A DNA stretch of 64,000 nt, from positions 3,563 through 67,562 of the forward strand of contig DATDQB010000010.1 in assembly GCA_035292445.1 (NCBI GenBank), read 5' to 3'. A program made the translations under genes and the position numbers. Positions 14,201 to 64,000 of the stretch are shown here, piece after piece. The notes beneath the pieces are model-generated. The model saw nothing but the letters and a program-made list of their open reading frames with translations, searched no databases and was not told the origin of the DNA. Every line of letters begins with the position of its first letter. The stretch's first letter is position 1. Origin of the DNA: Candidatus Omnitrophota bacterium (GTDB lineage Bacteria > Omnitrophota > Gorgyraeia > Zapsychrales > Zapsychraceae).

Positions 14201-15318
14201 TCAACCCTAGCCGCGAATTCCGGGGCATCGACAACCAGCATGGCCTCATCCACTGCCATTTTCGCCCCACCGGAAAAATACTTTCGTGGAATGACTTCCT
14301 GGGTGGCGGGATCATACTCTTCTTTGATGTAATTGTAGACCCCGACCTTAAAGGCCTCTAAATACTGCTCGTAGATCTTTTGTTTCACTTGTTTGTCTTC
14401 GACGTCCACGCCCTCTGTTTTATTTTGATCCACGTAAATTCTGTTGAGCAAATGCCCCTCAAGTTTTCTCTTGAACCACGTGGCTAAGATCAATGAATTG
14501 TAGATCTGGCGCAAATTGGCGAAATTCTTGCCTTCGTTGACTTCCTTCTCGATCTCAGGAAGAATCACCTCCCTCATCATTTCAGTCATCAGTCGTCGGT
14601 CTTCAGTCGTCAGACCTTCCTCTGACGTCTGATGACTGATGTCTGATGACTGACTAAGCGCCAAATAGTCTTCTTCCAACATCACCTTCAAATGCGACTC
14701 CACCACAAAGGCCGTATCGCCGTTCTCATAGACAACCGCTTTTTCAGGAACGATCCACACTTTATTGAACGTGTTGACCGGAATATCGCTGGTGCCGTAC
14801 AATTCATAAGCCCTCTGATGGATCCTATCCCAGAACTTCTTGCCCAATTCTTCCTCAGGATAGATCAGGCTTGCCGTTAATTGTTTAAGCAAATAATCCT
14901 GCGCCAAAAGGTCGCGCCCCATTTCCGTTATACCGAAACCCTCCGGCACAATGCGGTCCTTTTCATACGGCGAGAGATTGACCCACAAGTCTTCTTTGGG
15001 CACGGTCAAACTGGCCAGAAAATATTTGACCAATTTGTCGGCTTCAAGGCGCAAGGCCTCGTCTTTGAGGTTGCTTTCGCCTGTATCGATAATGAAATCA
15101 AAACGAAGCGGATTATCGGCGTAAATTTTAATGCCTTTCATCAAAGGCGGCGTGAAGGCGACGCTTGGCGGGAGCAACGTTCCCGGGGAGACAAGCGGTA
15201 AGGCCGCTTGCGCCCACACGAGTGAAGGAAGATAGACCGTTGAAACAAAAAAGACAACGGCAATCGTGGCGCAAATAAACTTAAATAATTGTGATTTTCT
15301 TAGAATATGTATACACAT
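11218..15318 (-). CDS. Giant modular protein (1366 aa): signal/TM, conserved N-cap, unknown module, PP2C-like phosphatase, GHKL (HATPase_c) module, conserved C-cap; paralog of the 4345-aa protein
   Basis: N-terminal hydrophobic segment; PP2C motif ALADGVGDHKYSGVASRLA...SVSDGIYE; HATPase_c motif IQVIDNGTGISPEILERLGKE...GRSGLDVIS; N-cap and C-cap about 60-70% identical to the 50935..63972 protein; five D-x-A-M-[VLIM] junction motifs. Confidence 0.8.
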   Translation of the reverse strand: MCIHILRKSQLFKFICATIAVVFFVSTVYLPSLVWAQAALPLVSPGTLLPPSVAFTPPLMKGIKIYADNPLRFDFIIDTGESNLKDEALRLEADKLVKYFLASLTVPKEDLWVNLSPYEKDRIVPEGFGITEMGRDLLAQDYLLKQLTASLIYPEEELGKKFWDRIHQRAYELYGTSDIPVNTFNKVWIVPEKAVVYENGDTAFVVESHLKVMLEEDYLALSQSSDISHQTSEEGLTTEDRRLMTEMMREVILPEIEKEVNEGKNFANLRQIYNSLILATWFKRKLEGHLLNRIYVDQNKTEGVDVEDKQVKQKIYEQYLEAFKVGVYNYIKEEYDPATQEVIPRKYFSGGAKMAVDEAMLVVDAPEFAARVEQNFNHAIIASAVLDAKGRDGESVTDVTRLLGPSLTDNAMLSEEMAGLIETAPQVRALQGRWGFTDTDKEQIMAWGDTGKEDRLPTPALIHKIFFHITKLYTSGKKRYAQAWINALSHKWQITSDIIFNVMQWLNKEGINLSAVSDAVFADFIDTTIDTYQRYSNLREKYVYFLPPGIDDNQKLILPTSNMKRMTGMFSPEFINGQAILKATIPGTSYFIAMKYGLAENTHGIYLVIGEEGDSVDPMKGVFARIGLDTQEDTIRVNLVHGVSGKQKLINEIFPQDLGLHPIVALLYIAAELAHQGHYRFENGGLEGKIEPFTSLMGIRPDFIPTMRNGEPTINVLANYERFGLRRSAEFGRWQYVDHIIRNTIPERIEMRLRPNATMAQRRRSVSIEKMIDAFNRMEQVPISSPIDGDLDRAMIADEHVRTGMVSDTLRARPNKDYTDVNRVKRAVALADGVGDHKYSGVASRLAVEVSLDQLKVDILAQVRTRGELKPIWEDLVQKIQAAYAEYKMVNSLTDQKEDKLETTLSLFHIREETVSGKRQVIFFNKGDSRIYAWSKRKRQLIQLTQDDTFAQEFIRTGSMTEEQAIGHMYSAILSDGIGLERGHELQDWQYGIVDIELDDIVFSVSDGIYENFTKSKKEFEDSVAQFADQFEDMNDFSRAIRNQAAAHAKDKQRENRFRKIDDMSVAAMKIAAQADTAMVGEETVQFYQFKVSDNYDLREQALVALRQAGKKLTLKLEESGQFKRYPTDHSQWTNRGYLDARMDDLYRNAIDAIFAQHGSNARQLGQITIQAAVRDQQILIQVIDNGTGISPEILERLGKEQVVTPKIPSEDTPFWGRSGLDVISLSWAFQDVGWTLKFENRRDNHGAIVSIIIPNSPADNKPDRAMMGAKEKDKVGGIDLNPDMLDIEERGRAIEFNLPEELKKLETMPINGFAPIIYQIIPVTNLPLLLGITDQEEPEPLAEHSASSLELSKAYERKEPIGIRE

Positions 15319-50554: not shown

Positions 50555-50860
50555 TCAATCCTTAAACAAATCCTCCGCTTTCATCTTCCCCAAATTCATC
50601 TTGTAATCATCAAAATCAATGACCGTGACACTGGGCTTCTCAGCAGCGAGCTTGGCCAGCTTGGGCCAGTGGGATCTGATGTTACGAAAGCTAACGTATT
50701 TAAATTCAGTTTTGCAGTTGGGACAAAGCGGTTCGTTTAATTTGATATCGATGTGATCGCAGTTGGCGCATTGGCCGGAAACATCGCCGTAGATGAGCAA
50801 TTGCTTTTTGATGGCGTGGAGGTCGATTTCTTTAAAAACACGGATAAATTTGCCGCTCAT
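50555..50860 (-). CDS. Small zinc-ribbon hypothetical protein (101 aa)
   Basis: CANC...CPNC cysteine pairs. Confidence 0.5.
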   Translation of the reverse strand: MSGKFIRVFKEIDLHAIKKQLLIYGDVSGQCANCDHIDIKLNEPLCPNCKTEFKYVSFRNIRSHWPKLAKLAAEKPSVTVIDFDDYKMNLGKMKAEDLFKD

Positions 50861-50928: not shown

Positions 50929-50995
50929 GGGTTATCAGGGTATCTGGTTATCAGGAATAAGCCTGATATCCTGGTATCCTGATGTCCTGATAACC
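50929..50995. repeat. Cluster of GGTTATCAGG (x2) and inverted CCTGATNTCC/CCTGATAACC (x3) decamers spanning the stop codon of the giant gene
   Basis: gggttatcagggtatctggttatcaggaataagcctgatatcctggtatcctgatgtcctgataacc. Confidence 0.6.
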
Positions 50996-53900
50996 TTTTC
51001 TTGTCTAATCGCTTTTGATAATTCAAAACCGAGGCCGTTCCCTTCCGCCAGCGGTTGCGGTTCATCATCAGCTATGCCTAATAATAGAGGAAGGTTCGTG
51101 ACCGGCGTAATGGAATAAATGATCGGGGTAAACCCTGTGATCGGCATGGTCTCAAGAATGGCGGGATCGAACTGTAGATCCATCCCCTGCCCCTGCGTTT
51201 GCAGCTCCAGCATGTCGGGGTTCATATCAATACCGCCGACATCTTTACCCTCAGCCAGAATCTCCGATTCTGGCGAGACCTCGCCCGCCTCTGGCGGGCG
51301 GGCCACCATCGCCTCATCATCGACTTCCGTTCCCATGCCCAGATCCCATCCATACTCGTCAATCGTTAGGATTTTCACGATTCTTTCCAACAAATCTCTT
51401 GCTTGAGGTCCGTCAACCTTAATAACCACTTGATCCCCTCTTACAAGCCCTAATGATATTATATCTGTTACTTCACTGATAACTTCTGACTCACCGCCAA
51501 CACCTAAAACTAAGGAATTACCAGGGTATCTATGCATCAACTCAATTATTCTTTCAGCTGGTCTTATATGTACACCGGCTGCTATGGCAACCTCTACCGC
51601 TTCTTCTGCTGAATTATCTTCATTTAATTCATCAAAACCTCGCGCCCCCACCATCGCCCGGTCAGACCTGTTTTCCGAAGTGACCGCTCGCCTCTCGGCT
51701 CCGCCGAGAGAGGCCTCGCCCATTGGGCGGGCCCGGTCATTCCCTGCTCCTCTTTCAATAATTAACCCCTCTTCCTTTAATTCCTCAAACCAACCCAAGA
51801 TATCTTCCTGCGTTATAGACCGAATCGCCTCAACATACCTTGACCAATTTGTTTCTCTTCCTACATTTTCAATAACATACCTAAACGCTTTACCATGAAT
51901 ATAAGAAAGGGCTCCATACGAGATATCCTGATTGAACATCAGCAAAGCCAACTGTATATTTAAGTCAGCTGAAATTCTAGTCCCTATTAAATGTGCTCCT
52001 TCTTGCTGTTCATATGGCCTTAAGATTTCATCACTCAGATAGTTGGAGTGGCTAAGAAGAATTTCTTTGGCCGATACCCCTATTACCTGATCGATATCCT
52101 TCTGTATAGATTCCGGCGTTTCTCCCGAGACAATTAAAGCATGCTCCATGTCCTCTAATTTCTTTTTATTTTCGGTATTTCGAGAAATTCTTTCCTGTTC
52201 AAATAATTTTCCAAGATAATACAGCTCTGAAGGTGTCAATACGGTAATAACATTCTCCATGCTGATTCCTGATTGAGCAATGACTTGATCCGACCTACGG
52301 TTACCAAGAATGCGAACCAAATAAGACCGGACGACCCTGTTATTAAGACCGCGCGCTGTTAAAACCTCCTTAGCCAATTCAACGCGGTGATTAACGACCG
52401 CTAGACTCTGTGTGAACAGATTTATTGAAGAAGGACGACTCATAAAAACAAACCCTAAGCGATCGCTGATTTCTGGATTATGTGCGGTGGAATCTCGATA
52501 GGGAATCCCATGGCGTTCAAAGATCATATATTCGTAAAGATGCGAAAGTTCACTTCCTAAGAGAAATAAACCACCCGTTACTGTCGGCTCCGTTATATTG
52601 CCGCCGGCCCAAGGAGGCACACCCTCTTCATATGTTGCAAAACCTCCTCCTGACCAGGGCGAACCAAAATAGGGAAACCAGACATGTCTCTTGATCAAAC
52701 CATTAGGCAATTGTCTTAAGTATGAATTATCAAAGAATTGGAGATTCTTGGCATAAGATAACCCAAGTAAAAATTCTCCCAAATCATCTTTGTCTATGTC
52801 TTGCTGCACAAGGATAGCATTAATTCGATCCGCTTCCGCTTGAACGGATACAGAATATCGGCCTGCTTGGTGATAATCCAGGAGCGCGTAAATCAAAATA
52901 TCTTGATCAGTTAATCCATCAATAAATTCCTGGCTATAAGCCGGATAGGCCCCTAAACGATTTCGAAGACGTGGGACAAGTTCCCGCTGCAACCAGCTTT
53001 GGTACCCATCAAGGTTTTCCACTCCAACCAAACTCAAAAATAACTGCTCACTCTCAACAACCGAAAATAAATTATTCTTACTAATCTTCGACAAAATATA
53101 CACCGCTCCTTGAAAATGTTGCAAATACACAGACTGCCGTTGTCTATCCTCTATACGATCAATGGCTTCCATGCGCCTTATGAATTGTCGAATGGCCTCG
53201 ATTTTGGTTATATTGATCAAATCAAACACTTGGAACATCACATTATACTGCGGATACTGCATCATGAGGCCTAAGCCCTCTCTTAGGATTTGCTCATCCC
53301 CTGTCCAGCGATGCACAATGCCTGCCAATTGAAGGATAACATTGCGGTGACTGATGTCTGATCTATCCACTTTAACAGCATGATACATCGAATCAACGTC
53401 AAATCCCTCCAAAAGAATATCCTGTCTTTTTTTCGATAAACGTGCCATATAATAAAATATTTGGATTGCCTCAAAATCATACGATATATTCTCAATCAAG
53501 TTTTCTTCTGTAATATGTGGACCCATCATTTCTTGCCACAGCCTCAAACCACCAGGGACATTAACTATTGTGTTTCCTGAAAGCTCCAAATAAGGCAATG
53601 TGGGCACCAGCCATAAGCCTATCGAGGCAATATTTTCACTGCGAATCCATTGCGCTATATTAATATGTTCTAAAGCAAAAATTTGCTCTTGCAGGCTCAA
53701 ATTGTATAAAGCACCTCTGACATATTCATTAAATAGATTAAGTTCTTCATTACTGAATACTGCGGCTCCAATATTAAGCAAGATCCATTCTCGCACAGCA
53801 GGTTCGAAATCTTCTATTAACGGGATAAGGCTGGGATTTGCCGTTTGCGCCACTTCAATTTTCTCTCTCAAAAATTCTAACGTCTCCGTTGGTTTTCCGG

Positions 53901-56900
53901 CATGCTCTTGAGCCAATATAGAACCTGCTAAAATGGAACCGATTGCCAAACTTCTTTTAATGTTCCTTAATGAAGAATCCCCCACCATCGCCCGGTCATC
54001 AAAGGCATTGGGTACGCGGCCCCGGGGCTGCGGCATTTCCTCAAATCTTTCTTCTTCAAAAACCATCATTTCTTCCGGGACAGGAGGCTCGGGTTCCGCT
54101 GGAAGGCGGACAAGTTCATCATCCACGATCGCGATATCGGAAGGCCTGATATCACGGACAAGGATCCCCGCCGCGATTAATCTGTTCCTGATCTCATTAA
54201 TGGTCAGCTCTTCTTCCATTTTGAAGGTATCGATAGTGAATTCCTCCCCCGCTCTCATATATCGCCCGTCCTCGAATTCCGTCAATCGTCTGATAACATG
54301 GGTGTCCGGATCGTCAATGATAATGTCCTGGATCCCAATACCAAGAATTAACGCTATCTCGGAAGCAAACACTTCTTTGACAATCATCACCGCCACCATC
54401 GCATGATCAACTGACTGCCCCATATCTATTGCGTGTTGAAATACCACTAACTGGCCATTGTGCCCCTCTTCAATAACAAACCCCGCCTGCGTAAATTGCT
54501 TTTTAACAAACGCTGGCATACGATGGTCGACCTTCTTGCCATAATCTGTCTCTCGGTGGTAGAACGTCGCAGCCAAAATACCGCCGGGCTTCAATATATC
54601 CTTTAAGCCTTCGATGAAAAGCCCCGTTCTTTCTTGCGACCACACCCCGCCTTGATCGGTCAGGGCATAGTACAAGACAGAGGCCGCCACAATGACATCA
54701 AACTTCTTAGGGAGCGCAGACAGCTTCAGAATATCCATGCGTTCGGCTTTAACGCCGTATATGCGCCGCGCCAATCGAGCCCCGCGCCAGCTAAGATCAC
54801 CAGCCGTTATGGTAGCGCCTTTTTCTTTCAACCAAGGGATCATACGGCTGTCCCGGCCCGGTCCGATCTCCAAGGCATCAATTCCCTCCCAAACCCGATC
54901 CAAATTCGTGAGATATCCGGCGATATAATCCGATGTGCCGCTAAAGAAACCGTCCAAATAATTAAAATAGCTCTTAAAGAGGCCTGGCCCGTAGATCGAC
55001 GGCTCATACCCCTCAGGTGGGATTAAGGCAATGCTCTCCTCAATGACCCGCTGAAGATTGTGCGCTGTTATAACAAAACCCTCTTCCTTAAGCTCAAACA
55101 ACCTAAAGACCACCCAATCGAGAGTATAAAAATCATATTGGCCGATAATACGCTGCAGTTCCTCCAAGATCAACGCGGCGATCGGCTGATAACGCTCCAA
55201 GACCTCCCTTAACTCAGGCAGGACGCTGCTGTCAAAGTACATGACATCCGCCATCTCAAAATCCGGATGGGCATATTCGGTTTTGGTTAAAATAATCTCG
55301 CGAATCTCCTCAATAGCCGCCATCGCATTATCGGCCGCATAAGGGGATTCGAAACGCAGCTCCAAGGCGTCGTTATTCTTGCCGTGGATGGAAGACAAAA
55401 CGACATTGCGGACGAGCGAAGGCATGCGGTACGCGCCAAGCCGTTCATGCTGCGGCCCTTTGCCGTCAGGCCCTTCCTTTTGCAGCAATCCCTGCCGCGC
55501 CAGGAACTCTGCCGTTCCGGTGTGGTATCCCTCCCATTTGACAACCCCAAATCCCGGCCGGCGCGCCTCATCGATCAACATATGCCGCGCATTGGTAAGG
55601 CGTTTCGTCCCGCCTCGATTAAGCTGTTGCAACTTGGCCCAGACCGACACTACCTGCTCGCCCGGTTCTTGGGTCAGATTCTTCAAACTGACTAACATCA
55701 CCCGGTCCCGACGCTCACTTCGTTCAGTCGGGACTCCGACCGAGTCTGCCTCTGGCAGACGAGCGTCGGAGTCGGATTGGTCTGCCGCTTTTTGTGCGGC
55801 AAGGATCAATTCTCCCATCCGATATCCGACGATCTTCAATAAAACGCCGGACCTGACCTTGTGTACAACGATATCGTGGATATCTTCATTGTCCGCACCG
55901 AACAATTTCAAAATTTCGGCATAGTACGGCGACTTTAGATATTCATCATCATGCGTTGAAATCTCTTGTTTTAATAGCCTTTGTGCCAGCTTTAAAACTT
56001 CCATATCGGTCACGGCTTCAACCGCGCGCTGCTGGTTGTATTCCGAGACGAATTGGCGGGCCAATAATTGAGCTGACTCTCCTAAATTTCTTTGGAAAAT
56101 ATAATAGGGCATGGGAATTTCGGCGCCAGGACGCGCTTCCATCCGCCTTATAATATTACCTTCGATCTTTTTATAAAAAGGATCTGTACGTTCTGTGCCA
56201 AGCTTAGCCGGAATGACCTTGAGTGATGACTCCCAATAAGCATCGATATAGCCTTTCATTACGGCATTGGCATCATGGCGATGCAACAACCATAAGATGA
56301 CCGCTGTCCATTGGAAATATGGGTCCACCGCCACTTTTGAAAAATAAATGCTTCTGATCGGCTTTACCGGTATGTATGCTTTTCCTTTTTGAATCTTAGG
56401 ATGGCTAAGGGCCACAGCAACCGGCTTTCCTAATTCGTTAAGTACGGCAAAGCTAAGCTGGGGATCAAAACGGTTCGGGTCATCGGCCAATTCAATAACA
56501 TCCTGCTGCAGACTAAATGTTTGATCCGCCGCGATCAAGTTCAATAACCGTAAGAATTCCGGCGCCTCTTGTAAAAGAAGCTCTCTGGTCAATGGAACAA
56601 GCTTGAGACGCTCTCCCTTAACGACCAGCTCATCATGCCGCTCTAACCATTCTGCGGCCGGCATGCCATCGATTTGCTCACCCGCGAAAACCTTGGAATG
56701 CCCCGGCGCTACGTCGTAACCATCCCCCACCATCGCGGCGTCTCCGGCAAGGGCCTCTTGGAACTCAGGCATCCCTTCCTCATTGAGGCGCCATTTGGTC
56801 GTCGCCGCTTTTCGCTCTTGCCCTTCCAGGCCGCGGTAACCGACCAAAGAAATACTTTGAGGCCTTTTTTGCCCTTCATAATGCGCCATGATCTCCAGGC

Positions 56901-59900
56901 GTGACAGCTCGGCCATCCTTGTCCCCATGCGCATGTTCATCATTTTTCCCAGCCTTTTGCCTTTGGGAAGAGGGAAATTACGGTTCAAGATGCCGTGCTG
57001 CAAACCTGTTTTGCCGACAAAATCACTGATATCAACGGCCACGCCGTCAAACTTGCTTGATGAATAGACCTTTCGAATTAAATTTTCGATATCTTTTTTT
57101 CTGAGCTGGACCTGGTTGACCTGGTACACAGGCCGCGTTCCGTCCCAAAGCCAGTGACTTTCCCGGTATTTTTCTTCGCGCCCTTCGACCATTTTGTAAC
57201 CGATAAACGCCATGGCCTTAACACTGCCATCCGTATTGTAATGGACCACCCATTCGACTTTGGAAAGACCGGCGCCGATCTTCATGCTTTCTATATGGTC
57301 CGCCCCCCACAGTTCACCATTGGGCAATGGAAAGGCAACGCGGATCTGCCCGGTCCGCAAATTCGATTCGCCCAAATATTTTGTGAGATCGATCTTTCTC
57401 CACGGCACATCCAGCGTTTCTTGATACAATTCCCTGACCTCATCCCCGTTTCCAGGTTTATACCTGTATTCATAAGCTTCGCCTGTCCATTCCCAATAGC
57501 TGCGCTCCATTTCATAATCTTTCTCATAGATCCTTTTGAAACCTATAAAAGTAATCCCCTTCACGTTCCCATCGGACAAAAAGTCGACCTTAAGCAAAAC
57601 TTTCGACAAATTCTTTCCGATCCTCATGAATTCTTGAAAGTCCCACGTCTTTCCGTTCGGCAACGGAAAGGTCCAGCCGATCTGGCCAGCCTTCAATTTT
57701 CCCGGCCCCAAATATTCCGTGATATCGACCGTGATCGACTTCTGTCCTTTTGAATTCCTATAAAACATCTTGATCAGCTCATCAGGGTCCTGAAATTCAA
57801 AATGCGTTCCGTTCCACAACGCATAACTCTTTCTGGTGATTGTCTGTTTTGACCTGTTCTTAGAAAGCCCGATAAAGCTCACAGCCTTAAGCTGGCCATC
57901 CGTAAAATGCGGCACCATTTTAACCTGTATCAATTTACCCCCCAGATGAATGCTACGCCTTTTGCCGCCCCACGAGGCGCCGTTGGGCAAAGGGAACATG
58001 TCCCTTACGATCCCGTATATCAAGTGATTCCGGCTAAAATGCTCCGTGATATCGAGTTCCATTCCGTCAAACCGCGCGTCCGTAAGATGCGCCTTGATCT
58101 TCTCATTAAGCTCCCTCATGAAATCGACGTATTCCAATTCCTCCCCGTCCCAGCGCCATAAGCTTCGGTTGTATTCTTCATGCTTTGAAGAACCGTTTTT
58201 CTTATAACCGATGAACATGACGCCCTGGATGTTTACCCGGTCAGGATCCCAAATCACTTTCATCTCCACACGCGATAGGTCTTTACCAAGCCTTAACTGA
58301 AGGAGCTCCCCCACGCGTTTGCCGCCGGGCAATAGGAACGCCGCCCTTAAAGACCCTCTTTTAAGGTTAAAGGGCGTCAATAAACGGGAAATATCAACGA
58401 CGACATCATGAAACTCGGGGTCTTGATAAATATGCTGGAGTTCATTGATATTATTCAGGGTCTTTACGAACCGCCCGTTCATCTGTTTGCGCTCGACTGA
58501 TATGATTTTACCGTTATTTTTTAGAATAACATGGCGGTCATAACTGTTGCCGTTGTTGACAAAAACGTTGGCGTTGACGGTCCACGTCGCATGATACAAA
58601 TGATCAAAGACCGTATCCCCTATCTGATAGAAACTGTCTTTGTTCACCATCATCGCCCGGTCAACGTTTTGCCCCTTGTCCATGACGGACGCGAAAGAAG
58701 AATCAAGCATCCCCAGATCACCTATGTAGAAAATGTTAGAATGCCCTTTTTCATTAAACGGATGCGGCACGTGGACAAACTCCAAATTGTTTTGTCTGAT
58801 GAATTCCTCCGCCCGCGTTTCTTTTTCCCTTAAACGATAATCCGCCAACCCGCTTTCTTCGGAAAGCAACACCCGCCAAATCGCCAATGAAGGATGCCGC
58901 TGTAGCCGACGCTTAAGTTCCCCAAAAAGTTCAAAAAACTTATCCGCTTTCATGTAATAGGAATGGTTCGCGAAGGATTCGTGCCCCAAAGGATTTCTTT
59001 CTACCCGATCGATAAACTCTTCCTCACTCACAACGCGAGGCGCATTGAACAAGTAAATATCCGCGTCCGGCTGCCGGGTGAAACCGTCCTGATAAAAAAT
59101 CTTTACGCTTGCGGCCGCGCTCGGCGGAATCTGTCCCGTTTCCAGAGCAAATTGAAAATTCCAGTTGGCTAACATCACATGCATCGGATTAATGTCCGTT
59201 GCCCAAACACTTTTTGCGCCGGACTTAAGGACATTAAGAAGATCAATTCCTGTCCCGACACCGATAATTCCTATGTCTTTCCCTTCAAAAATGCCCGGAT
59301 TATCCAGAACGGCCGTCTGAAAATCAACACTATGTTTATCAATCGTCTCAAACACGTCAAAATTGTCGATAGAAAACATGGTGAATATTCCGCTGGTTCC
59401 CCATATCTTTCTTAGTCGCTCCTGAATCGGTAAAACTACTTTATTTGTTGTACGTTTTAACCGTATCGTCTGCGCATATGGTTTGGGCGCCGGCGTTTCC
59501 GGGTAAAGGAACGGGATGGCGAGCTGTGCCAGCATACGGGCATTCAATGACAACGATTCTTCCGCAGAAACAATAGCTTCGGAGATATCAAATAGCAGAG
59601 GTTCGCCCGTCTTCCTTTGAAACATAATGCCGTAAGAAATAACTTTATGCTCTCCAAATAACGGAGTATTCCCTTCTAACGACAGAAGATACCCTTCAGG
59701 CGCCACATCCTCACCGTAAAGCAATGCTGAGAAAAAACGGACTCCATCCTCGGTGAAAGTAAGCGGTTCATACCACATCCTGGCGCCTTCGATCAATTCA
59801 GGAACGTCCAGAAAAATTTTATCCTTGTCTTTGTCCAAAAAAGAAAGAGAATCAATGATCTGGCGGCCCACCATCGCTTGATCCCTTACCCCAGCCCCCT

Positions 59901-62900
59901 CTTCATCGGTTATCGTTATAATCTTGATGGCCTCTTTGACCGATTTTCGTATGCTGGGGCCTTTTCTTTGGAGGCTGAGTGCGCTTAGATAAGGATATCC
60001 TGAGGCCGGCACCGATAGATTATCTGAGGTCGAGGCGATAATAACGGGCATCGACAACGACAACGCTTTTAACCCCTCGGCGATGGCAAGGGCGGAGCTC
60101 TCTTTGCCTACAACGACGTCAAAGGAGAACGGGTCCTCCGCGATCGTCTCCAGGGCCCGCTGTTCATTTTCGGCGTGAACGACGTTAAACTCTTCATTCA
60201 TGATATCCATCAGACGCCCCCGGCTTTGCGTCGCATCATCGACGATCAAGACCGTCCGGATCCTTGAAGTTACCCGGCGTTTTAACCCGCTTTCGATCCT
60301 GACGGTCAATTTCCGGTTTTCGATTGTCGCCGTAATGCCATCCTGGGCACGCAGCATCCGGGCCATCTCCGATACAACCGGCGAAAGCGGCTGTTCTTGC
60401 TGCCATAGCTCATCAAGCCTTTGGGGCATATCGCCACCCAGCAACTGCGCCCAATGGAACAAACTTGTCAAATAACCGTGCCCTATTTGCGCCTTCCCCG
60501 ATTCAAATTGTTCCAGGGGAACAGTAGCCAGCTGTCCGAGCAGCTCCAGCATATCGGTATCATCGATGTCTCTGATGAGCTTTCCTATCATGGCCCGGTC
60601 TTCCTGCCCGCCTTCTCCGATCAATTTTCTTTGATGATCAATAATCTGCCGTTTTACCCGCTCGTCAATGGCTGAAACGGCCTCGGCCCCCCGCGGGAAG
60701 CCGTATTCGTCATAATGGGCGGCAATCAGCACCAACTTTAAATCTTCCATCTCTTTCGAGGAAAAACCGGTATTATTAAGTAGATATAAGCTCAACCATT
60801 GTTTGATCTCTTCGCCGTAGTACCATTGGGAGGCCTCTCGGCCGAAATCTCCGGAGATCTTCTGCCACTGCCTGGGCGTCAACCGGCTTAAATTCTTAGA
60901 AAACAGAATAACGGGAAGCGGCATTTCGGCGCCGGGGCCGTACACATTTTCCAAAGCCACTTCAGACCCATCAACCGGTTCACGCCGGCTGTTAAGGAGT
61001 TTATCAAGGTTCAGCTCCAGCCTGCGCTTTAAGACCTGCTCAACCGATTCCGGGTGTTCACGCAAGTATCGAAGGTTGACCGTATCCCCCTTGCTATCAG
61101 CAAGAATTATATTGCCCGCCAGAAGATCGTTGATGATCTCAAGCAAAACCCTCAACCCCATGGCCGGATGGGCCAACCGTCTTTCGTATTCAAGCAAAGC
61201 GTAACCGATAATATTGTATTTGCTCTTGTAGCCGTCCTCGGCCGTTCCCAGCACGTTCCAGTTGAGATCAAGCGACGCCAGCGCGTTGAAAACTTCCACC
61301 AACACGGACACAAAAAGTTCGCTCCGCGAGAGCGGGGAATCCCCGTTAATGAACTGGGCCTTAAATTGCTGGCCGTACTCTTTGCCCAGGCCGATCTGTG
61401 GATCTTGGCTCAGAGCGTATCCCGCATGCAATTTATCAATATCAAAGATCGACTCGTCATCCTGGTTATAGACCTCGATGGTCGCGATCTTGTTCTTGAC
61501 GGAAATGAACCGGGTGATGTCAAAAGGAGGCATGAAGAATTCTGTCTTCTTTCCCGAACGAACCCAAAGACGTTCCCGGACCTCGTTCATGAGCTCGTCA
61601 TAATCAAAACTGCCCGTTTGCCTTTTGACTTCCCCAAATGCCTGGTCAAAACTCGATGCAACGGTTTCCGACCAATGCGCGATCGGTTCTGTCCAATCAA
61701 GGCTCATATCGAACGTTGAACGGTTGACGACCCTAAAGTGTGTTTCCCCCGTCTTTGAGGCCGCGATCATCACGGACATAAAAACTTCTTGCGGGGCGAT
61801 TTTGTAAAGACTTACATCATTTCTGTCTCTGCCGAAATAATAGAGGGTGTCGGACTTAAGCTGCCAGCCCTTTGACATCTGGCTCCCATCACCGTTGAAG
61901 CGCCGGAAAATGATCTGGCCGTCTTCGATAAAAAGCTTAAAATGATATTCCCCGAACTGGATGGTGATCACATTGACGAATTTTGAACTCATGCTGTTAT
62001 CGGGAGCAACGTTTTCTGACCTGTCACTAAGCATGGCGTTGTCTTCGCCCATCGCGCCCTTTGGTTCGGGGCCGAAATAATCGCGGGCGATCTCCAGCCG
62101 CCGGATCACTTCGTCCATTTCGGGACGGTCTTCCATCTTTTCTGCCGTCATGCCTTCAATAAGCGCCTTTAAGCCGCTGTTCTCCCAATCGGCTGTCGAG
62201 ATCCTTTCCGTCTGGTCACTGAACACGGTACGTATCGTTTTGCCGAGCCCGTAAACATCGGAGCGTGGCACTTTAACTTTTTCGGGGGCTACATAATCAT
62301 CTGCGCCCCAATCCGTTTCCTGGCCGATAACGGTAGCGATGCCGTAATCGATGAGAAATATCTCTCCGTCATCATCAAACAATATATGCTCCGGTTTAAC
62401 GTCGTTATGGACGAGACCGGAGCGCTCGTGCAGTTGTTTCAGTATCTCCGCGGCCTTGAGAATAACTTCTATTTGATGTTGGGGCCACAACCTCCTGAAA
62501 ATACTCGATTCAATCGTCAAAGCATGGGCCGGTCCTCTCGTCTTGATGAAGATCCACCCTTTTTCATTGACCTGGATGGACAATAATCGCGGCACGCCTT
62601 CGATACCGGCCTTTCCTATGATGTCCAGCGCCTGCGCTTCGTTGAGCGTGCGGTCATTGAAGCCGGTCTTATAAAAAATATCCGGCGGGTCATTGAGCTG
62701 TTGCAAGACCTCTCCAGCGCCGCCCGCACCGACATCTCTTTTTTCATCATAATTAAAAGAATACGCCTCCAAATAACCTTTTAATCGGGGATCGGCGCTG
62801 ATAAGCGCAATTGATCCCTGGTAAGTAGGGACGACCATCGCCTGATCGGGCAGGCCTTCGCCTTCAGGCTTTAAACCGACCGAGGCGATGAGGGCGTGGT

Positions 62901-63972
62901 CAAGATTATCCCTGACCTGCAAGGCATGGCGGGGATCATTGGAAACCACCATTGCCGCATCTAAGGCTATCCCCATCTGGGCGCCGCCGGAGAAATATTT
63001 GCGCGGGATGATCTCTTGGGTCGCCGGGTCATAGTCTTCTTTGATGTAATTGTAAACGCCGGTCTTGAAAGCCTCGAGGTACTGCTCATAGATCTTTTGT
63101 TTAATCTGCTTGTCCTCAACGTCAACGCCCTCAGTCTTATTTTGATCAACGTAGATCTTATTTAAAAGATGGTTATAAAGTGTCCGCTTGAACCAAGTCG
63201 CTAAGATCATGGAATGATAAATCTGCCGCAAATTAGCGAAGTTCTCACCTTCATTCACTTCCTTCTCGATCTCGGGAAGGATGATTTCACGGATGATTTC
63301 AGAACCAAGGTTATTTGTTTCTGCGGAAATCCCTCGCTGGTCATCGTTGGTTGGCAGATCAGCTCGGGACGTTGCGCTGTTTAAATTTTGTTGCAGCGCA
63401 ACGTAATCCTCTTCCAACATGACCTTCAAATACGCCTCAACGACAAAGGCCGTATCGCCGTTCTCGTACACAATCGCTTTTTCCGGTACGATCCACACTT
63501 TATTAAAGGTGTTGACCGGGATATCCGTTATGCCGAAACGTTCGTAAGCCAGCTTGTGCACTTTCTTCCAGAACTTCTCCCCCAATTCTTTCTCGGGATA
63601 AATGAGGCTCGCGGTCAGTTGTTTCAGAATATAATCTTGCGCGAGTAAGTCGCGGCCCATTTCGGTGACACCAAAACTTTCCGGGATGATGCGGTCTTTT
63701 TCATAGGGCGAAAGGTTCACCCACATTTCTTCTTTGGGCACTGTCAAGCTGGCAAGAAAATATTTAACCAACCTATCAGCTTCCTGGCGCAAGGCCTCAT
63801 CCTGCAGCTGGTTGTCGGCAAGATCAATAATGAAATCAAAATGAAGTGGATTCTGGGGATCGATCTTGATGCCTTTAAGAAGAGGCGGGACAAATCCGGG
63901 TGTGGGCGCCAGCATGATCCCGGGCGCGGGCAATGGGATCATCGGCTGGGCAAAGCTTATCCGCGGCGGCAT
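50935..63972 (-). CDS. Giant modular protein (at least 4345 aa, ORF open to the window edge at 64000): conserved N-cap, Hanks-type Ser/Thr kinase-like module, unknown modules, REC-like module, SAM-methyltransferase 1, 5x ~100-aa tandem repeat module, unknown modules, SAM-methyltransferase 2, small module, large ~750-aa module, HPr-like module, conserved C-cap
   Basis: Continuous 13 kb ORF; kinase HNDVKPEHIL...DYG...VAPE; MTase IGIIGVGTGIDLL and ALEIGPGRDS...LKPGGIL; REC-like RTVLIVDDATQ; HPr-like GVHIRPAERIIELM...GLVRGDQVVIKVDG; about 13 D-x-A-M-[VMIL] junction motifs; caps shared with the 11218..15318 protein. Confidence 0.8.
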   Translation of the reverse strand: MPPRISFAQPMIPLPAPGIMLAPTPGFVPPLLKGIKIDPQNPLHFDFIIDLADNQLQDEALRQEADRLVKYFLASLTVPKEEMWVNLSPYEKDRIIPESFGVTEMGRDLLAQDYILKQLTASLIYPEKELGEKFWKKVHKLAYERFGITDIPVNTFNKVWIVPEKAIVYENGDTAFVVEAYLKVMLEEDYVALQQNLNSATSRADLPTNDDQRGISAETNNLGSEIIREIILPEIEKEVNEGENFANLRQIYHSMILATWFKRTLYNHLLNKIYVDQNKTEGVDVEDKQIKQKIYEQYLEAFKTGVYNYIKEDYDPATQEIIPRKYFSGGAQMGIALDAAMVVSNDPRHALQVRDNLDHALIASVGLKPEGEGLPDQAMVVPTYQGSIALISADPRLKGYLEAYSFNYDEKRDVGAGGAGEVLQQLNDPPDIFYKTGFNDRTLNEAQALDIIGKAGIEGVPRLLSIQVNEKGWIFIKTRGPAHALTIESSIFRRLWPQHQIEVILKAAEILKQLHERSGLVHNDVKPEHILFDDDGEIFLIDYGIATVIGQETDWGADDYVAPEKVKVPRSDVYGLGKTIRTVFSDQTERISTADWENSGLKALIEGMTAEKMEDRPEMDEVIRRLEIARDYFGPEPKGAMGEDNAMLSDRSENVAPDNSMSSKFVNVITIQFGEYHFKLFIEDGQIIFRRFNGDGSQMSKGWQLKSDTLYYFGRDRNDVSLYKIAPQEVFMSVMIAASKTGETHFRVVNRSTFDMSLDWTEPIAHWSETVASSFDQAFGEVKRQTGSFDYDELMNEVRERLWVRSGKKTEFFMPPFDITRFISVKNKIATIEVYNQDDESIFDIDKLHAGYALSQDPQIGLGKEYGQQFKAQFINGDSPLSRSELFVSVLVEVFNALASLDLNWNVLGTAEDGYKSKYNIIGYALLEYERRLAHPAMGLRVLLEIINDLLAGNIILADSKGDTVNLRYLREHPESVEQVLKRRLELNLDKLLNSRREPVDGSEVALENVYGPGAEMPLPVILFSKNLSRLTPRQWQKISGDFGREASQWYYGEEIKQWLSLYLLNNTGFSSKEMEDLKLVLIAAHYDEYGFPRGAEAVSAIDERVKRQIIDHQRKLIGEGGQEDRAMIGKLIRDIDDTDMLELLGQLATVPLEQFESGKAQIGHGYLTSLFHWAQLLGGDMPQRLDELWQQEQPLSPVVSEMARMLRAQDGITATIENRKLTVRIESGLKRRVTSRIRTVLIVDDATQSRGRLMDIMNEEFNVVHAENEQRALETIAEDPFSFDVVVGKESSALAIAEGLKALSLSMPVIIASTSDNLSVPASGYPYLSALSLQRKGPSIRKSVKEAIKIITITDEEGAGVRDQAMVGRQIIDSLSFLDKDKDKIFLDVPELIEGARMWYEPLTFTEDGVRFFSALLYGEDVAPEGYLLSLEGNTPLFGEHKVISYGIMFQRKTGEPLLFDISEAIVSAEESLSLNARMLAQLAIPFLYPETPAPKPYAQTIRLKRTTNKVVLPIQERLRKIWGTSGIFTMFSIDNFDVFETIDKHSVDFQTAVLDNPGIFEGKDIGIIGVGTGIDLLNVLKSGAKSVWATDINPMHVMLANWNFQFALETGQIPPSAAASVKIFYQDGFTRQPDADIYLFNAPRVVSEEEFIDRVERNPLGHESFANHSYYMKADKFFELFGELKRRLQRHPSLAIWRVLLSEESGLADYRLREKETRAEEFIRQNNLEFVHVPHPFNEKGHSNIFYIGDLGMLDSSFASVMDKGQNVDRAMMVNKDSFYQIGDTVFDHLYHATWTVNANVFVNNGNSYDRHVILKNNGKIISVERKQMNGRFVKTLNNINELQHIYQDPEFHDVVVDISRLLTPFNLKRGSLRAAFLLPGGKRVGELLQLRLGKDLSRVEMKVIWDPDRVNIQGVMFIGYKKNGSSKHEEYNRSLWRWDGEELEYVDFMRELNEKIKAHLTDARFDGMELDITEHFSRNHLIYGIVRDMFPLPNGASWGGKRRSIHLGGKLIQVKMVPHFTDGQLKAVSFIGLSKNRSKQTITRKSYALWNGTHFEFQDPDELIKMFYRNSKGQKSITVDITEYLGPGKLKAGQIGWTFPLPNGKTWDFQEFMRIGKNLSKVLLKVDFLSDGNVKGITFIGFKRIYEKDYEMERSYWEWTGEAYEYRYKPGNGDEVRELYQETLDVPWRKIDLTKYLGESNLRTGQIRVAFPLPNGELWGADHIESMKIGAGLSKVEWVVHYNTDGSVKAMAFIGYKMVEGREEKYRESHWLWDGTRPVYQVNQVQLRKKDIENLIRKVYSSSKFDGVAVDISDFVGKTGLQHGILNRNFPLPKGKRLGKMMNMRMGTRMAELSRLEIMAHYEGQKRPQSISLVGYRGLEGQERKAATTKWRLNEEGMPEFQEALAGDAAMVGDGYDVAPGHSKVFAGEQIDGMPAAEWLERHDELVVKGERLKLVPLTRELLLQEAPEFLRLLNLIAADQTFSLQQDVIELADDPNRFDPQLSFAVLNELGKPVAVALSHPKIQKGKAYIPVKPIRSIYFSKVAVDPYFQWTAVILWLLHRHDANAVMKGYIDAYWESSLKVIPAKLGTERTDPFYKKIEGNIIRRMEARPGAEIPMPYYIFQRNLGESAQLLARQFVSEYNQQRAVEAVTDMEVLKLAQRLLKQEISTHDDEYLKSPYYAEILKLFGADNEDIHDIVVHKVRSGVLLKIVGYRMGELILAAQKAADQSDSDARLPEADSVGVPTERSERRDRVMLVSLKNLTQEPGEQVVSVWAKLQQLNRGGTKRLTNARHMLIDEARRPGFGVVKWEGYHTGTAEFLARQGLLQKEGPDGKGPQHERLGAYRMPSLVRNVVLSSIHGKNNDALELRFESPYAADNAMAAIEEIREIILTKTEYAHPDFEMADVMYFDSSVLPELREVLERYQPIAALILEELQRIIGQYDFYTLDWVVFRLFELKEEGFVITAHNLQRVIEESIALIPPEGYEPSIYGPGLFKSYFNYLDGFFSGTSDYIAGYLTNLDRVWEGIDALEIGPGRDSRMIPWLKEKGATITAGDLSWRGARLARRIYGVKAERMDILKLSALPKKFDVIVAASVLYYALTDQGGVWSQERTGLFIEGLKDILKPGGILAATFYHRETDYGKKVDHRMPAFVKKQFTQAGFVIEEGHNGQLVVFQHAIDMGQSVDHAMVAVMIVKEVFASEIALILGIGIQDIIIDDPDTHVIRRLTEFEDGRYMRAGEEFTIDTFKMEEELTINEIRNRLIAAGILVRDIRPSDIAIVDDELVRLPAEPEPPVPEEMMVFEEERFEEMPQPRGRVPNAFDDRAMVGDSSLRNIKRSLAIGSILAGSILAQEHAGKPTETLEFLREKIEVAQTANPSLIPLIEDFEPAVREWILLNIGAAVFSNEELNLFNEYVRGALYNLSLQEQIFALEHINIAQWIRSENIASIGLWLVPTLPYLELSGNTIVNVPGGLRLWQEMMGPHITEENLIENISYDFEAIQIFYYMARLSKKRQDILLEGFDVDSMYHAVKVDRSDISHRNVILQLAGIVHRWTGDEQILREGLGLMMQYPQYNVMFQVFDLINITKIEAIRQFIRRMEAIDRIEDRQRQSVYLQHFQGAVYILSKISKNNLFSVVESEQLFLSLVGVENLDGYQSWLQRELVPRLRNRLGAYPAYSQEFIDGLTDQDILIYALLDYHQAGRYSVSVQAEADRINAILVQQDIDKDDLGEFLLGLSYAKNLQFFDNSYLRQLPNGLIKRHVWFPYFGSPWSGGGFATYEEGVPPWAGGNITEPTVTGGLFLLGSELSHLYEYMIFERHGIPYRDSTAHNPEISDRLGFVFMSRPSSINLFTQSLAVVNHRVELAKEVLTARGLNNRVVRSYLVRILGNRRSDQVIAQSGISMENVITVLTPSELYYLGKLFEQERISRNTENKKKLEDMEHALIVSGETPESIQKDIDQVIGVSAKEILLSHSNYLSDEILRPYEQQEGAHLIGTRISADLNIQLALLMFNQDISYGALSYIHGKAFRYVIENVGRETNWSRYVEAIRSITQEDILGWFEELKEEGLIIERGAGNDRARPMGEASLGGAERRAVTSENRSDRAMVGARGFDELNEDNSAEEAVEVAIAAGVHIRPAERIIELMHRYPGNSLVLGVGGESEVISEVTDIISLGLVRGDQVVIKVDGPQARDLLERIVKILTIDEYGWDLGMGTEVDDEAMVARPPEAGEVSPESEILAEGKDVGGIDMNPDMLELQTQGQGMDLQFDPAILETMPITGFTPIIYSITPVTNLPLLLGIADDEPQPLAEGNGLGFELSKAIRQEKVIRTSGYQDIRLIPDNQIP
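56790..58410 (-). repeat. Five tandem ~100-aa protein repeats (FPLPNG-containing) inside the giant gene
   Basis: Repeats begin VDISRLLTPFNLKRG / LDITEHFSRNHLIYG / VDITEYLGPGKLKAG / IDLTKYLGESNLRTG / VDISDFVGKTGLQHG, each with FPLPNG/FPLPKG and a W.W(D/T)G end. Confidence 0.7.
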
Positions 63973-64000
63973 TAAACCCGTTATACTGAAAGTTATAACG

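What the first reader, a model, noticed from the sequence alone, without database searches (positions are those of the whole stretch)
51335..51640. HPr-like phosphocarrier domain embedded in the giant protein
The segment AVEVAIAAGVHIRPAERIIELMHRYPGNSLVLGVGGESEVISEVTDIISLGLVRGDQVVIKVDGPQARDLLERIVKIL aligns along its full length with bacterial HPr (GLHTRPAA...[43 protein letters not shown]). The phospho-accepting His (VHIRP) is retained. The module is bracketed by DRAMVGA (51643-51663) and DDEAMVA (51311-51334) junctions. An HPr domain inside a multi-enzyme giant protein that also carries a Hanks kinase and a REC-like domain is unusual.
Basis: partly seen in the sequence, partly recalled or inferred. 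Interest (0 to 1): 0.55.

Follow-up and report, generated by a model that had tools for sequence, protein, structure and literature searches.

The report
HPr domain inside Omnitrophota modular giant protein
A genuine copy of the small sugar-signalling protein HPr is built into a 4,373-residue exported protein of an uncultured Omnitrophota bacterium, as one of about eleven modules strung between a conserved head and tail. The domain is ordinary; the undescribed protein family that carries it is the more interesting result.

Summary
On the minus strand, residues 4121-4203 of the giant ORF (nt 51364-51612) are a complete HPr-family domain. Pfam PF00381 scores 41.6 bits (cut-off 23). The AlphaFold model has pLDDT 87.7 and superposes on HPr crystal structures at 1.3-1.7 Å. 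Gly13, His15, Arg17 and Pro18 are retained. The regulatory Ser46 is replaced by Glu, and the partner-binding face is more acidic than usual.

D-x-A-M-V linkers bracket the module. The protein has 12 such linkers against 0.16 expected by chance.

The carrier belongs to an Omnitrophota-specific family that I did not find in the searched literature. Its layout is Sec-type signal peptide, 340-residue conserved head, variable cargo and 65-residue conserved tail. At least 1,496 sequence clusters exist, and a second paralog lies in this window at 11218-15318. Cargo elsewhere is cytoplasmic-type: PPDK, PGI, PGM, PGK, NDK, kinases, PP2C, REC and HTH.

HPr is rare cargo, found in 2 of about 108 members sampled. 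It also occurs in other Omnitrophota giant proteins that NCBI already labels "HPr family".

No EI, HprK or EII partner is in the protein or among the window ORFs I scanned. The function is inferred: a phospho-histidine switch or docking module, with an unresolved conflict between export and the need for PEP.

The parts
50935..63972 (-). Giant ORF of 4,345 aa as visible in the window. The real gene is 4,373 aa and starts 28 codons beyond the window end. Layout: head, about 11 cargo modules, tail.
   Evidence: gene called as 4,373 aa on ENA contig ERZ27254861:k141_2871849. One search shows no stop between 63973 and 64000. One search shows 99.95-100% identity across four assemblies.
51364..51612 (-). 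HPr-fold core, aa 4121-4203, with beta-alpha-beta-beta-alpha-beta-alpha topology.
   Evidence: PF00381 at 41.6 bits. AF2 pLDDT 87.7, with the core above 92. Foldseek against PDB: rmsd 1.3-1.7 Å and TMt 0.86-0.89 for the top five hits.
51568..51570 (-). His4135, the equivalent of the HPr His15 phospho-acceptor. It sits immediately before helix 1.
   Evidence: Invariant in 59 of 59 aligned HPr sequences. Helix 1 starts at model residue 27, and His is residue 26. Coordinates.
51559..51564 (-). Arg4137-Pro4138, the equivalents of Arg17 and Pro18 in the active-site loop.
   Evidence: Arg is present in 57 of 58 and Pro in 57 of 58 of the closest HPr sequences.
51472..51474 (-). Glu4167 at the position of the regulatory Ser46.
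   Evidence: This column is Ser in 48 of the 58 closest HPr sequences and is never Glu. The next-but-one hydrophobic position (L/I/M/F in 54 of 58) is Thr4169.
51649..51663 (-). Upstream linker motif D-R-A-M-V, aa 4104-4108.
   Evidence: The residues after it have low pLDDT (mean 59), consistent with a flexible linker.
51304..51318 (-). Downstream linker motif D-E-A-M-V, aa 4219-4223.
   Evidence: The preceding residues have a mean pLDDT of about 51.
51073..51240 (-). Conserved C-terminal tail block, VGGIDMNP...PVTNLPLLLGI, aa 4245-4300.
   Evidence: It is found in 27 genome loci from Omnitrophota MAGs and in 46 of 61 3'-complete metagenome relatives, always 2-49 residues from the C-terminus.
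62962..63972 (-). Conserved head domain, aa 1-337. The signal-peptide-like N-terminus is cut off by the window edge.
   Evidence: 50-62% identity to 20 relatives. 1,496 clusters at E<=1e-5. AF2 pLDDT 73.8, with no fold or profile match in PDB or BFVD.
11218..15318 (-). Second, complete paralog of the same family, 1,366 aa. Layout: signal peptide, head, five D-x-A-M linkers, PP2C and HATPase_c cargo, tail.
   Evidence: The NCBI relative HLF17998.1 is from Candidatus Omnitrophota.

Best explanation
SHOWN. The segment encodes a complete, well-folded HPr-family domain, with the phospho-accepting His and its Gly, Arg and Pro neighbours intact. It is a self-contained module between two flexible D-x-A-M-V linkers. 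It is the last of about eleven cargo modules in an Omnitrophota protein laid out as signal peptide, conserved head, variable cargo and conserved tail.

INFERRED. The module works as a phospho-histidine switch or docking unit, not as part of a sugar transporter. It would take a phosphoryl group on His4135 from a PEP-dependent EI-type donor. In its two states it would bind or release partner enzymes, tying carbon and energy status to the signalling and enzyme modules carried by this protein family. That cargo includes a Ser/Thr kinase, methyltransferases, PP2C and HATPase, and in relatives PPDK, PGI, PGM, PGK and GH77.

Ser46 is replaced by Glu and the helix-1/helix-2 face carries extra acidic residues. 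I therefore expect no HprK control and a non-canonical or weakened EI interaction.

UNRESOLVED. Where this happens is open. A Sec-type signal with no transmembrane helix predicts that the whole chain leaves the producer's cytoplasm.
For: Domain identity:
- PF00381 at 41.6 bits, E 1.3e-10.
- 33 HPr, Crh or NPr sequences in PDB.
- 86 hits in 1.84 billion proteins.
- The closest stand-alone relative, P0127, sits in a ptsH-ptsI operon.

Fold:
- pLDDT 87.7.
- The 39 best PDB matches are all HPr, Crh or NPr.

Active site:
- G4133, H4135, R4137 and P4138 occupy columns that are 98-100% conserved in 58 relatives, although overall identity is only 21-35%.

Module boundaries:
- Every Pfam domain in the protein lies between linker motifs and none is interrupted.
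- The linker flanks of the HPr model have low pLDDT.

Family architecture:
-.

Cargo is rich in carbohydrate, energy and signalling enzymes:
- PGI at 646 bits, plus PGM and HEAT.
- PPDK at 432 bits.
- PGK, NDK, guanylate kinase and GH77.
- PP2C and HATPase_c.
- HTH and kinase.

His is retained in all seven embedded HPr modules read by eye in Omnitrophota long proteins: the window, L101, two in P0134 and two in P0143.

From established knowledge (my own, not tested here): E. coli HPr regulates glycogen phosphorylase and other carbon-metabolism enzymes by direct binding. PDB entries 9s8b and 9s8k are such complexes.
Against: - No EI, HprK or EII domain is in the protein. None was found among the roughly 30 window ORFs scanned, or in 1.5 Mb of related loci.
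- 65 of 66 5'-complete relatives have a Sec-like N-terminus. The giant protein has no convincing transmembrane helix. The module should therefore be outside the cytoplasm, where PEP and EI are absent.
- Glu at position 46, Thr at 48, Asp at 49 and Glu at 20 alter the face that binds EI and EIIA. From my own knowledge, S46D and S46E mutants are poor EI substrates.
- TIGR01003 scores only 31.8 bits against a 47.9-bit cut-off.
- HPr is rare cargo, in 2 of about 108 members, so it is not integral to the family.
- No phosphorylation data exist.
Confidence: 0.45

Rival explanations
1. Delivered effector or decoy. The whole head-cargo-tail protein is exported and its cargo acts inside an attacked or host cell. 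There the HPr module would drain phosphate from the victim's EI. Alternatively, with Glu in place of Ser46, it would imitate Ser46-phosphorylated HPr and mis-set the victim's carbon regulation.
For: - A Sec-type signal is present in 65 of 66 relatives, and the giant protein has no transmembrane helix.
- All cargo is of cytoplasmic type and needs ATP or PEP.
- Ankyrin, HEAT and TPR cargo is typical of effectors.
- Position 46 is Glu, unique among 58 relatives.
- Omnitrophota are proposed predators or parasites (PMC10066038; 10.1101/2023.11.21.568195).
Against: - No secretion or injection machinery is conserved next to these genes.
- The head and tail match no known secretion or translocation domain.
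- Housekeeping cargo such as PGI, PGK and NDK is not what toxins or effectors usually carry.
- The victim organisms and their PTS status are unknown.
Confidence: 0.2
2. Polyprotein precursor. A protease cuts at the D-x-A-M-V linkers and releases a free protein of about 115 residues, which serves as the cell's ordinary HPr or NPr.
For: - There are 12 linker motifs against 0.16 expected, all between domains.
- The motif is lineage-specific: D-x-A-M-L in L008, and A-S-S-P-V in L005 flanking PGI and PGM. That fits a co-evolving protease.
- Published work has proposed cleavage of Omnitrophota giant proteins.
- No stand-alone HPr was seen in the window or the loci.
Against: - No cleavage evidence exists, and no dedicated protease is encoded in the protein or conserved nearby.
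- The signal peptide would place the products outside the cytoplasm.
- The Ser46Glu change and the altered partner face are atypical for a housekeeping HPr.
- Only 2 of about 108 family members carry HPr, so most relatives would have to obtain HPr some other way.
Confidence: 0.12
3. Relic or purely structural module. The HPr fold is kept as a stable spacer or binding surface, without any phosphotransfer.
For: - There is no PTS partner in the protein or among the scanned window ORFs.
- The predicted location is extracytoplasmic.
- The partner face has diverged.
- In other embedded copies the Arg-Pro pair has drifted: HVRV and HMRV in P0134, HMTT and HAKT in P0143.
Against: - In this copy the whole G-x-H-x-R-P loop is intact, although overall identity to relatives is only 21-35%. 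That argues for selection on the active site.
- His is kept in all seven embedded copies read by eye.
Confidence: 0.18
4. Chance resemblance or mis-assembly. The segment is not really an HPr domain, or not really part of this gene.
For: None found.
Against: - E 1.3e-10 against Pfam.
- The fold matches HPr.
- The sequence is identical in four assemblies.
- The public collection's precomputed Pfam hits for the 4,373-aa gene also include PF00381.
Confidence: 0.01

Closest known systems
Stand-alone HPr / NPr phosphocarrier proteins (PtsH, PtsO; Pfam PF00381)
   Same: The fold is the same, at 1.3-1.7 Å rmsd. The length is about 85 residues. The G-x-H-x-R-P active-site loop has His at the N-cap of helix 1, and identity to many members is 25-40%.
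   Different: This copy is embedded in a 4,373-residue protein that carries a signal peptide. Ser46 is replaced by Glu and the partner face is acidified. No ptsI lies next to it, whereas the closest relative P0127 sits in a ptsH-ptsI operon. It scores below the TIGR01003 cut-off.
Multidomain PTS proteins that contain an HPr domain (FruB/FPr, DhaM, multiphosphoryl transfer proteins); from my own knowledge
   Same: An HPr domain is covalently joined to other domains in one polypeptide.
   Different: In those proteins the neighbouring domains are PTS partners (EIIA, EI). They are cytoplasmic and a few hundred residues long. Here the neighbours are an unannotated 778-residue module and the family tail, with no EIIA or EI domain anywhere. 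NF008319 (fused EIIA-Fru/HPr) gives only 12.6 bits.
Omnitrophota long 'multi-enzyme' proteins (bioRxiv 10.1101/2023.11.21.568195; 10.64898/2026.06.07.730766), including NCBI MDD3274354.1 and MFA7705789.1, which are labelled 'HPr family phosphocarrier protein'
   Same: They come from the same phylum. Many unrelated cytoplasmic-type Pfam domains tile one long polypeptide that usually has a signal peptide or transmembrane helices. Methyltransferase, HATPase, REC, HAD, PGM and HEAT are common content. P0134/P0227 and P0143 carry two HPr domains each.
   Different: Those papers deal mainly with proteins of 10,000 residues or more. They do not mention HPr, the head, the tail or the linker motifs. 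P0134/P0227 share only the HPr domain with the window protein. They use an H-x-R-V loop, and each HPr follows a different conserved region.
Modular multi-effector and polymorphic toxins (MARTX, Rhs, CdiA); analogy only, from my own knowledge
   Same: A conserved delivery part is combined with swappable cargo, and short conserved motifs mark the module borders.
   Different: There is no sequence or fold similarity. This family also has a conserved C-terminal tail, no immunity gene and housekeeping-enzyme cargo.

Membership tests
HPr family (Pfam PF00381 PTS-HPr) | Sequence match above the curated gathering score across the whole domain | tested here: met
   41.6 bits against a cut-off of 23, covering profile positions 2-79 of 81.
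HPr family (Pfam PF00381 PTS-HPr) | Open-faced beta-sandwich: a four-stranded antiparallel sheet with three helices on one face | tested here: met
   AF2 elements are E12-18, H27-38, E44-49, E52-56, H59-64, E72-78 and H82-94, with pLDDT 87.7. The top 39 PDB fold hits are all HPr, Crh or NPr. Caveat: the alignment used for the model consisted of HPr homologues.
HPr family (Pfam PF00381 PTS-HPr) | Phospho-accepting His at the N-cap of helix 1, in a G-x-H-x-R-P loop | tested here: met
   G4133-V-H4135-I-R4137-P4138. These columns are 98-100% conserved in 58 relatives.
HPr family (Pfam PF00381 PTS-HPr) | Phosphorylation by Enzyme I with PEP | not testable with these tools
   This needs a biochemical assay.
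HPr family (Pfam PF00381 PTS-HPr) | A PTS partner (EI, EIIA or HprK) encoded in the genome | tested here: inconclusive
   None was found among the roughly 30 window ORFs scanned or in 1.5 Mb of related loci. The rest of the genome was not available.
HprK-regulated HPr / Crh subgroup | Ser46 in a K/R-S-I/L context | tested here: not met
   The sequence is S4166-E4167-V4168. The column is Ser in 48 of 58 relatives and is never Glu.
NCBIfam TIGR01003 (HPr family, subfamily model) | Score above the curated cut-off | tested here: not met
   31.8 bits against a cut-off of 47.9. All HPr and NPr equivalog models are far below their cut-offs.
Fused PTS phosphotransfer proteins (FPr, DhaM, MTP) | HPr domain adjacent to an EIIA or EI domain in the same polypeptide | tested here: not met
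   No PTS domain other than PF00381 was found in the whole protein or in its separately scanned modules.
Omnitrophota head-cargo-tail family (defined here, not a curated family) | Conserved head of about 340 residues (WVNLSPYE, TEMGRDLL, IPRKYFSGG) | tested here: met
   50-62% identity to 20 relatives. E values down to 1e-139.
Omnitrophota head-cargo-tail family (defined here, not a curated family) | Conserved C-terminal tail (VGGIDLNP...PVTNLPLLLGL) within 50 residues of the end | tested here: met
   aa 4245-4300, with 45 residues following.
Omnitrophota head-cargo-tail family (defined here, not a curated family) | Sec-type signal peptide before the head | tested here: inconclusive
   The window cuts off 28 codons. 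Only ...VITFSITGL-MPPRISFAQP is visible. The signal is present in the in-window paralog and in 65 of 66 relatives by a hydrophobicity rule. No dedicated signal-peptide predictor was available.

The most novel reading that the evidence does not exclude
The head-cargo-tail proteins are a previously undescribed export or delivery platform of Omnitrophota. A Sec signal, a head with no detectable fold relative and a 65-residue tail would carry strings of cytoplasmic-type enzymes and regulators out of the cell. Lineage-specific linker motifs (D-x-A-M-V/L or A-S-S-P-V) would serve as processing sites. The cargo would then work in or on a host or prey cell. In that setting the HPr module, with a built-in phospho-Ser46 mimic (Glu), would be a decoy that hijacks the victim's PEP-dependent phosphorelay or carbon-catabolite control.
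Probability: 0.18. Interest if true: 0.85.

Novelty: new variant of a known kind. Interest (0 to 1): 0.45.

Why it matters
HPr is known as a small cytoplasmic phosphocarrier, or as a domain fused to other PTS parts. Here an apparently catalytically intact copy sits in a signal-peptide-bearing modular protein with no PTS partner.

That raises a concrete question: where and how do the cytoplasmic-type modules of Omnitrophota long proteins work? The family gives a handle on it. The family is abundant, its modules are cleanly delimited by short linker motifs, and its members are small enough (1-4 thousand residues) to express. Its cargo includes easily assayed enzymes such as PGI, PGK, PPDK, NDK and HPr.

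Testing export, linker cleavage and His phosphorylation on this family would inform the open debate about the function of giant proteins in these uncultured, possibly predatory bacteria.

Tried and rejected
1. A search with the full-length protein timed out. A word-indexed search with the HPr module alone found nothing. That tool listed nothing longer than 662 aa in my searches, so the absence of long relatives there is not informative.
2. I tested whether the Met of D-x-A-M-V is an internal start codon. There is no Shine-Dalgarno-like sequence upstream, the Asp codon is split 6/6 between GAT and GAC, and other lineages use the Met-less motif A-S-S-P-V. Rejected.
3. I tested for a nucleotide-level signal at the junction. 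GCG-ATG-GTG is enriched. However, Ala before Met is GCG or GCC in 31 of 34 non-motif cases too, so most of the effect is ordinary codon-pair bias. A residual preference for GTG after Met remains (8 of 9 against 9 of 25).
4. I asked whether the M20 peptidase gene near both the window HPr module and the ptsH of P0127 indicates shared ancestry. Identity is only 25%. This is coincidence.
5. I looked for a conserved partner gene, such as a protease or secretion system, next to family members. Only generic response regulators recur.
7. The PADLOC defence models gave only generic kinase and methyltransferase hits.
8. I guessed that window genes 20-29 kb might form an rpoN-ptsN-hprK-type cluster. They do not.
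Full report
**What is at the coordinates**

The stated range lies inside a single minus-strand ORF, 50935..63972, of 4,345 codons. The ORF runs off the window: there is no stop between 63973 and 64000. On its source contig the gene is called as 4,373 aa, and the collection's precomputed Pfam hits for it already include PF00381. The last 6.3-9.9 kb of the gene are 99.95-100% identical in four assemblies, so the fusion is not an assembly artefact. Housekeeping proteins of the window are identical to proteins of an NCBI 'Candidatus Omnitrophota bacterium' MAG.

**Is it an HPr domain?**

Yes.
- PF00381 scores 41.6 bits (E 1.3e-10, cut-off 23) on the isolated module and covers profile positions 2-79 of 81.
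- phmmer against PDB sequences returns 33 HPr, Crh or NPr chains.
- An exhaustive HMMER scan of 1.84 billion representatives returns 86 hits at E<1e-3. Most (about 70) are stand-alone proteins of roughly 82-110 aa at 25-40% identity.
- The best hit, P0127, sits directly upstream of a ptsI gene.
- An AlphaFold2 model built on 58 of these relatives has pLDDT 87.7, with the core above 92, and the canonical beta-alpha-beta-beta-alpha-beta-alpha order.
- The 39 best Foldseek hits in PDB are all HPr, Crh or NPr. The best five have rmsd 1.3-1.7 Å and target-normalised TM 0.86-0.89.

The fold result is not independent of the sequence result, because the alignment was made of HPr homologues.

**Which HPr features are kept**

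His4135 is invariant in the alignment. Gly4133, Arg4137 and Pro4138 occupy columns that are 98-100% conserved. His sits immediately before helix 1.

The regulatory Ser46 column is Ser in 48 of 58 relatives and is never Glu. Here it is Glu4167. The normally hydrophobic residue two positions later is Thr4169, followed by Asp4170. Position 20 is Glu.

From my own knowledge of the HPr-EI and HPr-HprK complexes, these residues lie on the shared partner-binding face, and acidic substitutions at 46 impair EI-dependent phosphorylation. So the catalytic loop looks functional, while the docking face is atypical. The subfamily model TIGR01003 is below its cut-off.

**The carrier protein**

D-x-A-M-[VILMA] occurs 12 times, against 0.16 expected. 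All Pfam-detectable domains fall between these motifs:
- Pkinase at aa 501-586 (Pfam envelope)
- a sub-threshold REC
- two methyltransferases
- HPr

. The residues flanking the HPr core have low pLDDT. The motifs therefore mark flexible linkers between independently folding modules.

The first roughly 340 residues (head) and a C-terminal block of about 65 residues (tail: VGGIDLNP...PVTNLPLLLGL) are conserved, and everything between them is unrelated from one member to the next.
- The head alone finds 1,496 sequence clusters and at least 527 JGI metagenome stretches.
- The tail finds 27 loci in Omnitrophota MAGs, some of them labelled Planctomycetales, with several genomes carrying two loci.
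- By a simple hydrophobicity rule, 65 of 66 5'-complete relatives have a Sec-type N-terminus with a basic n-region, a hydrophobic core and A-Q-A/S.
- 46 of 61 3'-complete relatives have the tail 2-49 residues from the end.
- A second, complete paralog lies in this very window at 11218..15318. It has a signal peptide, head, five D-x-A-M linkers, PP2C and HATPase_c cargo, and tail.
- The giant protein has no convincing transmembrane helix.
- The head model (pLDDT 73.8) and the head and tail profiles match nothing meaningful in PDB or BFVD.
- No neighbouring gene is conserved.
- The linker motif is lineage-specific: D-x-A-M-L in L008, and A-S-S-P-V six times in L005, where it brackets PGI, HEAT and PGM.

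**What the family carries**

The cargo is cytoplasmic in type:
- full-length PGI (646 bits), PGM and HEAT
- PPDK (432 bits to 1kbl)
- PGK, NDK, guanylate kinase, GH77, ABC1 kinase, ankyrin, TPR and HAD
- HTH and kinase
- NUDIX and HAD
- REC
- CofD and methyltransferases

An HMM built from the HPr alignment finds HPr cargo in only two of about 108 members: the window protein and L101. L101 has the module at aa 1746-1826 (43 bits) with the loop GIHGRVAG, followed by SSDRAMVG.

HPr domains also occur twice each in other long proteins, two of them from Omnitrophota MAGs. These are P0134/P0227 (NCBI MDD3274354.1, 5,530 aa partial, named 'HPr family phosphocarrier protein') and P0143, whose source organism I did not look up. 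They share nothing else with the window protein.

**Comparison with the literature**

Two preprints describe Omnitrophota long proteins tiled with many Pfam families. They report that 94% carry a signal peptide or transmembrane helices, and they debate whether the proteins are cleaved and where they act. Neither preprint, nor PMC10066038, mentions HPr, the head, the tail or the linker motifs. Text searches for the motifs found nothing.

**Mechanism**

Shown: a complete HPr fold with an intact phospho-His loop, as a discrete cargo module.

Inferred: it is a phosphorylatable switch or docking unit linked to the carbohydrate, energy and signalling cargo of this family. It is not part of a transport PTS, because no EI, EII or HprK is in the protein, among the roughly 30 window ORFs scanned, or in 1.5 Mb of related loci.

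The main unresolved conflict is topology. A Sec signal with no membrane anchor predicts export, yet HPr, like PPDK, PGK and NDK, needs cytoplasmic substrates.

The rival readings are:
- delivery into another cell as a decoy (Glu46 acting as a phospho-Ser mimic)
- polyprotein processing that releases an ordinary HPr
- a phosphotransfer-dead structural module

**Verdict**

The finding is correct, and the domain assignment is essentially certain. In itself it is a modest novelty: a known domain in a phylum already known for patchwork giant proteins, and already auto-labelled in NCBI for other proteins. The context uncovered while checking it is the part worth following up. That context is an abundant head-cargo-tail family with lineage-specific linker motifs and housekeeping-enzyme cargo behind a signal peptide, which I did not find described in the searched literature.

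Noticed in passing
window 11218-15318 (-): A second, complete member of the same head-cargo-tail family (1,366 aa). It has the signal peptide ...SLVWAQA|ALPLVSPG, the head, five D-x-A-M linkers, PP2C phosphatase and HATPase_c cargo, and the tail KVGGIDLNP...PVTNLPLLLGI.
   Followed up: yes
window 62962-63972 (-) and 51073-51240 (-); loci L004-L030 and L036-L115: The conserved head (about 340 aa) and tail (about 65 aa) define a large Omnitrophota-specific family: at least 1,496 clusters and at least 527 JGI metagenome hits. It has no Pfam, PDB or BFVD relative and no conserved gene neighbours. I did not find it described in the searched literature.
   Followed up: partly
L005:1718-10249 (+); L008:1880-10228 (+): The linker motif differs by lineage. 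A-S-S-P-V occurs six times in L005 and brackets the PGI, HEAT and PGM domains. D-x-A-M-L occurs nine times in L008. Many family members have no recognisable repeated motif.
   Followed up: partly
L023:2620-4485 (+); L005; alignment A4 members: Central-metabolism enzymes occur as cargo behind a Sec-type signal: PPDK (432 bits to PDB 1kbl), PGI (646 bits), PGM, PGK, NDK, guanylate kinase and GH77. This is hard to reconcile with export.
   Followed up: partly
window, the 12 junction codons listed (for example 51649-51663): Synonymous-codon bias at the linker motif. Ala is GCG in 9 of 12 cases and Val is GTG in 8 of 9, and the same trend appears in L008, L016, L101 and L024. Most of the Ala bias is general Ala-before-Met codon-pair bias. 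The GTG preference after Met is not explained.
   Followed up: partly
window 63973-64000: The giant ORF continues past the window edge. The real gene has 28 more N-terminal codons (4,373 aa), presumably the signal peptide. The visible part reads VITFSITGL before the first in-window ATG.
   Followed up: partly
window about 56730-58400 (-), aa 1859-2445 of the giant protein: Four or five internal repeats of about 110 aa, each with an F-P-L-P-N/K-G motif (aa 1993, 2102, 2214, 2333). They resemble a repeat in L016 (aa 1714-1815) and have no Pfam match.
   Followed up: no
P0134 / P0227 (NCBI MFA7705789.1, MDD3274354.1) and P0143: Other long proteins, the first two from Omnitrophota MAGs, carry two HPr-like domains each (H-x-R-V or degenerate loops). 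Each HPr follows a conserved region of about 330 aa containing GGIGGGGHRHK...GFIRIDPP. P0227 also repeats the motif K-T-Y-P-A-R-L and, by eye (not scanned against Pfam), appears to contain PRPP-synthetase-like and metallophosphatase-like parts.
   Followed up: partly
window 50555-50860 (-): A 101-aa ORF directly downstream of the giant gene has two CxxC pairs (CANCDH...CPNCKTEF), like a zinc ribbon, and no Pfam hit. It is present with identical sequence on 8 contigs.
   Followed up: no
It may still be a divergent receiver, since it has LIVDD and FDVVV motifs.
   Followed up: partly
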